Positions 1 to 12,063 of a stretch of DNA of 64,000 nt are shown piece after piece. The position numbers and the translations under genes are program-made. This stretch comes from Eledone cirrhosa (taxonomy: Eukaryota), in NCBI GenBank assembly GCA_964016885.1, contig OZ024749.1, positions 21,266,001-21,330,000 on the forward strand, given 5' to 3'. The number at the start of each line of letters is the position of its first letter. The first letter of the stretch is position 1. The notes under the pieces were generated by a model. It was not told the DNA's origin and ran no database searches. It worked only from the letters and a program-made list of their open reading frames with translations.

Positions 1-2358
1 AGATCGGTGAGCAGGCACAGCAACAGACTGATTTGAGTATCACAGTTGAAACTCTTAAGGGGCAAGCCAAAAACCTAACCATCTGGAAATCACCAGGCCC
101 AGATGGTGTGCAGGGGTATTGGATTAAACATTTAACATCCCTCCACCCGAAGCTGACGGCCATGTTCAATGACTGCTTGGTGTCGGGTGAGGTGCCAGAG
201 TGGTTGACAAAAGGTACCACAGTTCTGATAATGAAAGACCGAATCAAGGGTAATGATGTTACCAACTATAGACCTATCACATGTCTGCCCGTAATGTGGA
301 AACTGTTGACGAGCATTGTGTCTGAGGAAATCTACCATCACCTCCACACAAACAACTTGTTGCCGGACGAACAGAAAGGATGCCGAAAGAAGTCACGTGG
401 TACAAAGGACCAGTTGCTTATTGATAAGATGGTAATGGGGAATTGCAGGAGGAGACACACTGATCTTGCCATGGGATGGATAGACTACAGAAAGGCATTT
501 GACATGGTGCCTCATTCCTGGATCACCAAAAGCCTGGAGATCTTCAGGGTGGCAGATAACATCAGACAGTTGCTGGGCAGGAGTATGGGGTCCTGGGAGA
601 CAGAGTTGACATCAACTGGAGTATCCTTGGGAAGCGTGAAGATCAAGAGAGGTATCTTCCAGGGAGATAGCCTGTCCCCTCTGTTGTTTGTCCTTGCCCT
701 GATGCCCTTGACCATTATGCTGCGAAAAGTGAGAGCAGGATACAAGTTGGGAAGGGGAGAGCTTACCATCAATCACCTCCTCTTCATGGACGATCTTAAG
801 CTCTTCGGGAAAAGTGAGAAGGAGTTGGATGTGCTTGTTGACACTGTCCGTATTTTCAGCAGTGATATATGTATGCAGTTTGGTATTGGTAAATGTGGAG
901 TCATTGTGATGAGGAGGGGTAGGTTGAGCAGAAGTAACGGGATCCAGATACCAACAGGTGAGATGATAAAGGAAATTGACTCTGAGGAAGGATACAAGTA
1001 TTTGGGCGTTCTGGAGGCTGATGGCATAAAGAACAAAAAAATGAAGGAATTGTTAAGAACTGAATACATTCGGAGAGTAAGGAGCGTATTGAAGTCACAT
1101 CTGAACAGCAGAAATGCCATAAGCGGAGTAAATTCCCGAGCTGTGTCTATTATTAGGTACAGTGCGGGAATTCTGAGATGGAATGTTGCTGAACAAAAAG
1201 AAATGGATAGGAAGACTAGGAAGCTATTGACTATCTACAACATGTTCCACAAGAGGAGTGATGTCGATAGACTCTACCTAAGGAGATCTGAGGGTGGAAG
1301 AGGTCTTATCAGCATAGAGGACTGTGTTCAGATGGAGAAAAACAACCTATACAAATACGTGACCTATAGTAAGGAGCCAATGCTCAGAGCTGTACTGAAG
1401 GAGGGGACAGTAGGCCAGGGGATACCCAAGGAGGAAATAACATCAAGGAGGAAGAGCAGCCTTAAGGGAAAATCCCTTCATAGTACCTTCTTTGAGAAAA
1501 CTGAATTTAGAGATCCACAGACATGGAACTGGTTGAGAAGAGGAGACCTCAAAAAGGCTACAGAAGGAATGCTAATGGCTGCGCAGGAGCAGGCCCTCAA
1601 AACGAAGTGGTTGAAGCACCATATCTACAAGGAGGAGGCTAGCCCACTGTGCAGGATCTGTGGAGAGAGAGAGGAGACTGTGGCTCACATTGTGTCCGAG
1701 TGTAAACACCTAGCCCAGACCCACTATAAGGGCTGGAGACACGATGTGATGGGCAGGGTGATCCACTGGCACCTGTGCAAAGTAAACAATCTACCACATT
1801 CTGAGAAATGGTATGAGCATAGGCCAGAGGCGGTGATGGAGAACAGTCAGGTGAAGGTGCTGTGGGATTTTAGGATACAGACGGACAAAAAACTGGAACA
1901 CAATAGACCTGACCTGGTGGTTGTGGACAAAGAAAAAAGATCGTGCCTGATTGTGGATGTGGCCTGCCCGTTCGACACGAGAGTGCAAGAGAAGGAGAGG
2001 GAGAAAATTAACCGATACCAGGACCTAAAGTGGGAGGTGAAAAGGATTTGGAACTGCCATGAAGTCAAAGTGATCCCGATTGTCATAGGCGCACTGGGGA
2101 CTATCTCCAAAGGTTTCCAGGGATGGTTAAAGAAAATCGGCCCCTTCACGCTTTTTGGAACGCTTCAAAAGGCATGCTTGCTTGGAACGGCAAGAACCCT
2201 CCGATACGTCCTGAATATCTGAGGCTGCAGGTAGTGGCTTGATATTCAATCCAACGGACTTTCCAGTTAACCAACATCAATGACTGAGATTCAAGGAATA
2301 ACAATAACAATAATAATAATAATAATAATAATAATAATAATAATAATAATAATAATAA
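1..2358 (+). mobile_element. R4/Dong-like RLE non-LTR retrotransposon, copy A (5' end outside window)
   Basis: RT+CCHC+RLE ORF ends at 2222, followed by a ~75-nt 3'UTR and an (AAC/AAT)n tail at 2297-2358. (TAA)n association is established for Dong elements. Confidence 0.9.
33..2222 (+). CDS. Reverse transcriptase / zinc knuckle / restriction-like endonuclease polyprotein (N-terminally partial)
   Basis: KSPGPDG, NYRPITCL, IDYRKAFD, GIFQGDSLSP, LLFMDDLKL, YKYLG, CRICGEREETVAHIVSEC (CCHC), RHD, RPDLVVVD...IVDVACP and EKINRYQDL; no stops in 729 codons. Confidence 0.93.
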   Translation: MSITVETLKGQAKNLTIWKSPGPDGVQGYWIKHLTSLHPKLTAMFNDCLVSGEVPEWLTKGTTVLIMKDRIKGNDVTNYRPITCLPVMWKLLTSIVSEEIYHHLHTNNLLPDEQKGCRKKSRGTKDQLLIDKMVMGNCRRRHTDLAMGWIDYRKAFDMVPHSWITKSLEIFRVADNIRQLLGRSMGSWETELTSTGVSLGSVKIKRGIFQGDSLSPLLFVLALMPLTIMLRKVRAGYKLGRGELTINHLLFMDDLKLFGKSEKELDVLVDTVRIFSSDICMQFGIGKCGVIVMRRGRLSRSNGIQIPTGEMIKEIDSEEGYKYLGVLEADGIKNKKMKELLRTEYIRRVRSVLKSHLNSRNAISGVNSRAVSIIRYSAGILRWNVAEQKEMDRKTRKLLTIYNMFHKRSDVDRLYLRRSEGGRGLISIEDCVQMEKNNLYKYVTYSKEPMLRAVLKEGTVGQGIPKEEITSRRKSSLKGKSLHSTFFEKTEFRDPQTWNWLRRGDLKKATEGMLMAAQEQALKTKWLKHHIYKEEASPLCRICGEREETVAHIVSECKHLAQTHYKGWRHDVMGRVIHWHLCKVNNLPHSEKWYEHRPEAVMENSQVKVLWDFRIQTDKKLEHNRPDLVVVDKEKRSCLIVDVACPFDTRVQEKEREKINRYQDLKWEVKRIWNCHEVKVIPIVIGALGTISKGFQGWLKKIGPFTLFGTLQKACLLGTARTLRYVLNI

Positions 2359-11960: not shown

Positions 11961-12063
11961 TTATTATTATTATTATTATTATTATTATTATTATTATTAT
12001 TATTATTATTATTATTATTATTATTATTATTATTATTATTATTATTATTATTATTATTATTAA
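11960..12063. repeat. (ATT)n microsatellite, ~34 units
   Basis: Direct reading. Confidence 0.95.

What the first reader, a model, noticed from the sequence alone, without database searches (positions are those of the whole stretch)
1..12063. Gapless chain of retroelements sharing one (AAT)n landing pad, with class-specific strand rules
Seen: six insertions (Dong-A, Dong-B, Tx1-A, Tx1-B, SINE, Dong-A fragment) abut with only AAT/ATT tracts between them. All three RLE elements are sense to (AAT)n, while both Tx1 copies and the SINE are sense to (ATT)n. Known: Dong elements target (TAA)n, and some Tx1-clade elements (Kibi, Koshi) target microsatellites. Inference: unrelated endonucleases (RLE vs APE) use opposite strands of the same microsatellite, and each tail regenerates a target, so the array feeds its own growth.
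Basis: partly seen in the sequence, partly recalled or inferred. Interest (0 to 1): 0.75.

Follow-up and report, generated by a model that had tools for sequence, protein, structure and literature searches.

The report
Retrotransposon chain inside Penelope's mirrored arms
Two unrelated kinds of jumping gene and a short hitch-hiker have piled up, each kind always facing its own way, in the AAT repeats carried by the two mirror-image ends of a third jumping gene, which shows that one mobile element hands out landing pads for others; the strand choice is likely a property of each lineage's enzyme and RNA tail, not of the whole enzyme class.

Summary
The chain is real and the strand rule holds genome-wide: 284 of 293 exact Tx1-A 5' ends follow TATTATT and none follow TAATAAT. 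Dong copies are sense to AAT. Two corrections. (1) There is not one pad but two. The 15-kb array lies between the inverted arms of a (TA)n-inserted, Hydra-type Penelope-like element; each arm carries a native short AAT tract, and polarity flips at 10053-10056, where a 14-nt inverted Tx1-B stub joins Tx1-B. In loci chosen through this host, 27 of 67 arms are empty and 35 of 35 clearly assigned first neighbours obey the rule, so the tract came first. (2) 'Class-specific' is overstated: the SINE shares the Tx1 3' end, so only two lineages are compared; silkworm SART1 and TRAS1 use opposite strands within one clade; RTE-like elements here end in other repeats. Tails do serve as targets, but self-feeding beyond random filling was not shown. 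The scan reported the Dong/Tx1/SINE chain twice before on other DNA of this genome; the Penelope frame and empty-site test are added here. New variant of a known kind.

The parts
1..2296 (+). Dong-A, 3' part of a near full-length RLE non-LTR retrotransposon (starts at G000:C9:21263145, outside the window, after (AAT)15 and the long Penelope arm at about C9:21262803-21263099)
   Evidence: RVT_1 E 3.7e-23; 1141-aa open frame with CCHC and PD..D motifs; 99.8% to its best relative among fetched loci
2297..2359 (+). Dong-A tail: AACAATAAC then (AAT)17
2360..4787 (+). Dong-B, 5'-truncated RLE element; protein 35% identical to Dong-A
   Evidence: RVT_1 E 4.1e-29; 16 other genomic places 100% identical over the last 248 bp at the top score; blastp
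4788..4830 (+). (TAA)14 tract shared as tail by Dong-B (+) and Tx1-A (-)
4831..10014 (-). Tx1-A, APE-type element with intact 5' end, frameshifted ORF2 and an internal deletion of about 0.7 kb just before its last 17 nt
   Evidence: Exo_endo_phos E 1.1e-9, RVT_1 E 1.7e-27; three frames and deletion size from L080 and L018
10015..10041 (+). (AAT)9 tract, innermost tract of the left arm
10042..10055 (-). 14-nt Tx1-B 3' terminus (stub), joined head to head to Tx1-B through a 3-nt microhomology; the polarity switch of the array
   Evidence: 34-bp perfect inverted match 10022-10055 / 11582-11615; family sequence at the breakpoint; junction unique in the genome
10056..11595 (+). Tx1-B, 5'-truncated, 78% identical to Tx1-A
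   Evidence: zf-RVT E 7.3e-9; full-length relatives with APE-RT-zf ORF2
11596..11615 (+). (ATT)6 tail of Tx1-B
11616..11716 (+). 5'-truncated copy of a 187-bp SINE whose last 30 nt resemble Tx1 3' ends
11717..11747 (+). tract shared by the SINE (+) and the Dong-A fragment (-)
11748..11958 (-). Dong-A subfamily 3' fragment (211 bp, 92% to the left Dong-A)
11959..12065 (+). (ATT)34 tract, outermost tract of the right arm
12066..12186 (+). short arm of the Penelope-like host element, inverted against the long arm upstream of the window, ending in (TA)n at 12187
   Evidence: inverted alignment; at least 1058 candidate copies; linked GIY-YIG/RT frame; same fixed arm ends in other copies

Best explanation
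The array lies between the two inverted arms of one Penelope-like insertion, each arm carrying a native AAT tract, and Dong elements (sense to AAT) and Tx1 elements with a Tx1-tailed SINE (sense to ATT) have filled both tracts, likely because each lineage's endonuclease nicks its own strand and its RNA tail pairs with the freed end. Steps: (1) a Hydra-type Penelope-like element inserts in (TA)n as a long arm plus an inverted short arm (shown as architecture; mechanism from the literature). (2) Its 3' region holds a short ATT/AAT tract, so two opposite pads arise (shown). (3) Tx1 and the SINE prime on the AAT strand at ATAAT-3' ends, Dong primes on the TTA strand (inferred from tails and duplications). 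(4) Each insertion leaves tract on both sides, so later elements land in earlier tails (shown as geometry); the Dong copies are the youngest (inferred from identity). (5) The centre of the host was lost between the stub and Tx1-B, either by deletion between two facing Tx1-B copies or by one event primed from both arms (inferred, unresolved).
For: Inverted arms flank the array. The same frame occurs empty or lightly filled (L201, L204, L099, L104, L217-L219) and filled on both arms with a polarity flip (L185, L192, L193). Host protein has RT, CxCX5C linker, YIG, CxxC and CxH motifs, the Hydra features in PMC8557442 section 11. Host-selected loci: 67 arms in 53 of 57 loci, 27 empty, 9 Dong AAT-sense, 7 Tx1 and 19 SINE ATT-sense, 1 mis-hit that is a short ATT-sense SINE piece, 4 unassigned (35 of 35, P 6e-11). 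Genome-wide 284 of 293 versus 0 of 293 for Tx1-A 5' ends. Dong 5' junctions AAT in 61 of 75; background 0.6-0.7%. SINE duplications begin ATTA in 10 of 13 (13 of 24 copies had one). SINE 3' end scores above 1000 of 1000 shuffles of Tx1-A-type ends, not of Dong or CR1 ends. Endonuclease swap changes target between SART1 and TRAS1 (PMC7265360, passages).
Against: Nick position and strand are not observed; sequence cannot separate endonuclease choice from tail pairing. Only 13 of 25 truncated Tx1 5' junctions show an ATT run and 3 of 46 unselected SINE 5' flanks show an AAT run. One Tx1-B sits tail to tail with a CR1 tail (L004). The host arm supplies few of the genome's tracts: none of the 28 random tracts was identified as one and the exact arm-end motif occurs 52 times. 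The stub junction could not be checked in reads. Clade names rest on domain architecture, not on trees with reference elements.
Confidence: 0.75

Rival explanations
1. Tail-only polarity: the endonucleases nick AT-rich DNA on either strand and only the RNA tail (AUU or UAA repeats, read through from the donor's own flank) decides which nick can prime, so polarity is an inherited accident of each lineage.
For: Tail and 5' flank always share polarity. Full-length Tx1 have 5' ATT far more often (46 of 47) than truncated ones (13 of 25), as if RNA-borne repeat helps at both ends. Annealing of 3' RNA to target improves accuracy in SART1 (PMC7265360 passages).
Against: CR1 has ATT tails in 9 of 9 but ATT 5' flanks in 1 of 9, so a tail alone does not give targeting. 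In SART1/TRAS1 the endonuclease is the main determinant.
Confidence: 0.25
2. Class rule: RLE enzymes use one strand and APE enzymes the other.
For: Both Dong families (35% identical proteins) are AAT-sense; all Tx1 families seen, and CR1 tails, are ATT-sense.
Against: Two independent targeting lineages give opposite strands half the time by chance. RTE-like elements here end in TAGA/TA repeats. SART1 and TRAS1 insert in opposite directions in one repeat; that both carry APE follows from their R1-clade placement (R1 clade APE: PMC4640811 passage; membership of SART/TRAS recalled).
Confidence: 0.1
3. No targeting: the tracts are only tails expanded by slippage, and chains reflect local clustering.
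For: 15 of 28 random tracts adjoin a library element, mostly as tails; tracts lengthen after insertion.
Against: Empty host arms already hold the tract and filled arms keep both host flanks around chains of up to five elements (L094, L186, L203); 284 of 293 5' ends follow TATTATT.
Confidence: 0.03
4. The polarity flip is an assembly chimera or fold-back read.
For: The junction occurs once in the genome and no laid contig or read bridged it (repeat skipped, uninformative).
Against: The two outer ends are the long and short arms with the fixed ends seen in other copies, differ at 3 of 121 bases, and carry different insertions; L185, L192 and L193 show the same two-armed layout.
Confidence: 0.04

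Closest known systems
Dong (R4 clade; Bombyx mori, Anopheles gambiae, Biomphalaria glabrata)
   Same: TAA microsatellite target (PMC3812793 passage); single ORF with RT and C-terminal CCHC and PD..D motifs, nearest solved relatives R2 proteins
   Different: Two young families co-exist and share tracts with Tx1 and a SINE; that review lists Dong among APE elements, whereas no APE domain was found here
Kibi (TC)n, Koshi (TTC)n and crocodilian (TTCC)n/(TTTC)n Tx1 families
   Same: Tx1-type elements with microsatellite preference (PMC4494074 passages)
   Different: Target here is (ATT)n or a short ATTAT site; no ATT/AAT word occurs in the main text of that paper (figure and supplements not seen)
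SART1 and TRAS1 of Bombyx mori
   Same: Two lineages insert in opposite directions into one short repeat; endonuclease sets the target (PMC7265360 passages)
   Different: Telomeric TTAGG, one clade; here a dispersed trinucleotide repeat and unrelated enzymes
SINEU and Tx1-Mar of crocodilians; Xenopus Tx1 in Tx1D
   Same: A SINE shares target preference with its likely Tx1 partner, and the target lies inside another transposon (PMC4494074 passages)
   Different: Here the target is a microsatellite inside a Penelope-like element, present twice in mirror image, and the SINE also shares 3' sequence with Tx1
Hydra-clade Penelope-like elements
   Same: C-terminal GIY-YIG, CxCX5C linker, CxxC and CxH motifs, (TA)n insertion, inverted 5'-truncated copy (PMC8557442 section 11 and passages)
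   Different: Role as carrier of AAT landing pads not mentioned in the passages read; RWK and DKT motifs not found in the three frames examined

Membership tests
Dong / R4 clade | single ORF with RT and C-terminal CCHC plus restriction-like nuclease motif, no APE | tested here: met
   1141-aa and 1175-aa frames, RVT_1, no Exo_endo_phos; motifs read (motif meaning recalled); best solved relatives R2
Dong / R4 clade | insertion in (TAA)n, sense to TAA | tested here: met
   5' AAT in 61 of 75 junctions, 3' AAT in 64 of 66; 9 of 9 in host arms
Dong / R4 clade | RT phylogeny with reference R4/Dong elements | not testable with these tools
   homolog search gave unnamed proteins; no reference set on hand
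Tx1 clade | two ORFs, ORF2 with APE, RT and zinc finger, L1-group affinity | tested here: met
   1151-aa ORF2 with Exo_endo_phos, RVT_1, zf-RVT; best solved relative L1 ORF2 E 2e-52
Tx1 clade | RT phylogeny separating Tx1 from L1 and placing it against Kibi/Koshi | not testable with these tools
   35 homologs, none named
Tx1 clade | target preference in more than 20% of flanks (criterion of PMC4494074) | tested here: met
   284 of 293; truncated 13 of 25
Tx1-mobilised SINE | 3' end shared with the partner LINE | tested here: met
   mean score 31-32 versus 19-20 shuffled for Tx1-A and other Tx1 ends (0 of 1000 reach it); Tx1-B weaker (46 of 1000); Dong and CR1 not. The window's own SINE copy alone gave no significant match
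Tx1-mobilised SINE | tRNA-derived head | not tested
   A/B-box-like words seen by eye in the full copy; ARAGORN found no tRNA in the window, whose copy lacks the head
Hydra-clade PLE | RT followed by CxCX5C linker and C-terminal GIY-YIG with CxxC and CxH, no CCHH | tested here: met
   3 of 3 loci show CxCX5C, YIG and CxxC; CxH in 2 of 3; Pfam GIY-YIG only weak, E 0.045
Hydra-clade PLE | RWK and DKT motifs | tested here: inconclusive
   not found in four open frames of 574-727 aa; frames may lack the N-terminus
Hydra-clade PLE | (TA)n insertion and inverted truncated copy | tested here: met
Hydra-clade PLE | canonical hammerhead ribozyme | tested here: inconclusive
   core-like words present but Rfam gave no hammerhead hit and the minimum-energy fold did not form it

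The most novel reading that the evidence does not exclude
A tiered microsatellite ecology: a (TA)n-targeting Penelope-like element spreads paired, oppositely oriented AAT pads; two unrelated retrotransposon machines colonise them from opposite strands; each insertion doubles the pad so arrays grow by preferential attachment; and the facing pads let one Tx1 RNA be primed from both arms at once, excising the host's centre.
Probability: 0.25. Interest if true: 0.7.

Novelty: new variant of a known kind. Interest (0 to 1): 0.45.

Why it matters
Microsatellite targeting, opposite-strand sharing of a repeat and nesting in another transposon are each known. This genome combines them with very young Dong copies, and the Penelope arms give built-in empty and filled sites in both orientations. 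That makes an open question directly testable: whether the endonuclease or the RNA tail fixes the strand. It also warns that such chains and polarity flips will confuse repeat annotation and AAT marker design.

Tried and rejected
Unique inverted duplication of the flank: first reading, rejected when the flank proved to be a repeat family with a Penelope-like frame. Neptune or Naiad label for the host: dropped for Hydra-type motifs. Tx1-B inserted inside another Tx1-B 3' end: rejected, no continuation follows the right tract. Genome search with the Dong-A 3' end returned nothing (the tool skips very common words), so Dong-A data come from neighbours in other loci. Reads: no RNA holder listed; contigs and reads skipped 10005-10050 and did not test the junction. 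Local alignment of the window's SINE end to single LINE ends was not significant; the family-level test was. Chain-length test: 47 arms counted by hand, several censored; variance/mean 1.48, P 0.019, but Poisson and geometric log-likelihoods -77.9 and -78.3, so preferential attachment is not shown. Rfam found only AT-repeat chance hits. Homolog searches gave no clade names. Paper searches returned nothing; others returned no description of this arrangement in what was listed or read.

Full report
Observation. The six insertions are present at the stated place and in the stated orientations. All six runs of four or more AAT/ATT units in the 64-kb window lie in the array. In 40 evenly spaced 10-kb stretches of the genome there are 28 such tracts, so six in 12 kb, each at an element boundary, is not chance. 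The window is G000:C9:21266001-21330000 in a 3.0-Gb genome. That it is an octopod is my inference from recalled SINE words and from the similar mix of young Dong-R4, L1-Tx1 and Penelope families in Octopus vulgaris (PMC13282606, parts 1 and 2 of 3 read); it is not established.

Corrections to the anatomy. Dong-A begins 2856 bp before the window after (AAT)15 and has a 1141-aa open frame. Tx1-A has its 5' end, a frameshifted ORF2 and a deletion of about 0.7 kb before its last 17 nt. Between Tx1-A and Tx1-B lie (AAT)9 and a 14-nt inverted Tx1-B terminus, joined to the Tx1-B body through 3 nt of microhomology; this junction occurs once in the genome. Tracts read AAT on the + strand left of it and ATT right of it.

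The frame. The sequences just outside the first and last tracts are inverted copies of each other. They belong to a repeat family (at least 1058 candidates) that is flanked by (TA)n and continues into a frame with RT, a CxCX5C linker, YIG, CxxC and CxH. These match the Hydra clade of Penelope-like elements, and an inverted truncated copy flanking the unit is a described Penelope feature (PMC8557442, passages and section 11). RWK and DKT were not found, so I call it Hydra-type. Copies show a long arm facing a short arm with fixed ends: empty or lightly filled (L201, L204, L099, L104, L217-L219) or filled on both sides with a polarity flip (L185, L192, L193). Each arm holds a native short ATT/AAT tract. 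In the window the host's centre is missing and the stub junction stands in its place.

Strand rule. Genome-wide, 284 of 293 exact Tx1-A 5' ends follow TATTATT and 0 follow TAATAAT. In fetched loci other than the window's own (hits of at least 80 bp and 85% identity; loci chosen through these elements), 5' junctions were: Dong AAT 61 of 75, ATT 2, neither 12, most exceptions being library artefacts on inspection; full-length Tx1 ATT 46 of 47; truncated Tx1 ATT 13 of 25, AAT 1; SINE ATT 39 of 67, AAT 2; CR1-like ATT 1 of 9. Tails were Dong AAT 64 of 66, Tx1 ATT 54 of 58, CR1-like ATT 9 of 9. Background is 131 and 122 of 20,000 windows. In loci chosen through the host, 67 arms in 53 of 57 loci gave 27 empty, 9 Dong AAT-sense, 7 Tx1 and 19 SINE ATT-sense, 1 mis-hit and 4 unassigned. 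The mis-hit is a short ATT-sense SINE piece; 35 of 35 gives P 6e-11, or 1e-9 if the mis-hit is counted against. Chains of three to five elements sit between intact host flanks (L094, L186, L203), so the tract precedes the insertions.

Limits of the rule. In the unselected panel only 11 of 46 SINE 5' flanks have an ATT run and 3 have an AAT run; 13 of 24 complete copies have a duplication and 10 of those start ATTA, so the SINE needs a short motif, not a microsatellite. Its 3' end resembles Tx1-A-type ends (0 of 1000 shuffles reach the score), Tx1-B weakly (46 of 1000), and not Dong or CR1, so it is likely a Tx1 passenger and not an independent case. That leaves two lineages. RTE-like elements (label from recalled C-terminal motifs) end in TAGA/TA repeats, and one RTE-like fragment sits in a host tract. 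SART1 and TRAS1 insert in opposite directions in TTAGG, and swapping the endonuclease swaps the target (PMC7265360, passages). One Tx1-B sits tail to tail with a CR1-like tail (L004).

Mechanism. By target-primed reverse transcription (established knowledge), an element sense to ATT is primed by the AAT strand and one sense to AAT by the TTA strand. I infer lineage-specific nicking helped by pairing of the RNA tail; CR1-like elements have the tail but not the targeting, which argues against tail alone. Insertion leaves tract on both sides, and younger elements sit in older tails, including tails of the untargeted CR1-like family (L036, L045, L021, L084). Best-relative identities among fetched loci are 99.8% and 99.5% for Dong-A and Dong-B, 97.2% for Tx1-A, 94.6% for Tx1-B and 96.6-97.5% for the arms, so the Dong copies likely came last. 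Whether growth exceeds independent filling is open. The centre was lost either by deletion between two facing Tx1-B copies or by one event primed from both arms; stubs of similar size appear at 2 other ends among 94 examined (L109, L178), so very short insertions do occur.

Comparison and novelty. Dong in TAA and Kibi/Koshi in TC/TTC are listed in PMC3812793 (passages) and PMC4494074 (passages), which also shows a SINE following its Tx1 partner into another transposon. PMC4640811 and PMC4758252 were read as passages; the latter names no Tx1 partner for an octopus SINE in those passages. PMC8967140 was seen only as a search listing. Searches found no account of ATT-sense Tx1 sharing tracts with Dong or of Penelope arms as pads; most subscription papers and Repbase were not searchable. 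Two earlier notes of this scan report the same Dong/Tx1/SINE chains on other DNA of this genome; I had formed the chain, frame and SINE results before reading them, and took from them the SART/TRAS comparison and the Hydra label, both then checked. Verdict: real, genome-wide, a new variant of known behaviour; interest 0.45.

Noticed in passing
window 19000-64000: About 44 kb of TTAGGG/CCCTAA blocks interleaved with an A-rich 8-25-bp satellite, at position 21.3 Mb of a 56.8-Mb contig, so interstitial and telomere-like.
   Followed up: no
L136:1462-2350 and L091:7145-8340: Dong-A and Dong-B share their 5' UTR at 81-88% although their proteins are 35% identical; Dong-A repeats a unit of about 330 bp three times there.
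   Followed up: partly
L136, Dong-B 5' UTR about 840-895 nt from its start: Dong-B carries a SINE 3' remnant with its ATT end inside the 5' UTR, so it propagates a captured SINE piece.
   Followed up: no
L113, L187, L148, L152, L174: Some SINE 5' junctions have an inverted (AAT) run, possibly a fold-back or twin-priming signature like the stub in the window.
   Followed up: no
L096, L117, L198, L031: Full-length Dong copies often start after (AAT)n followed by (AAG)n, apparently expanded from the element's own 5' end.
   Followed up: no
L100 about 1270-1420: Hammerhead-like core words lie just inside the host's ATT tract; not confirmed by Rfam or by folding.
   Followed up: partly
L125-L131, L226, L022: At least three Tx1 5'/ORF1 types share near-identical or related ORF2 sequence, all starting after (ATT)n.
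   Followed up: partly
L007, L085, L141 and window 4848-4852: Large internal deletions are common in Tx1 copies, some ending close to the 3' terminus.
   Followed up: no
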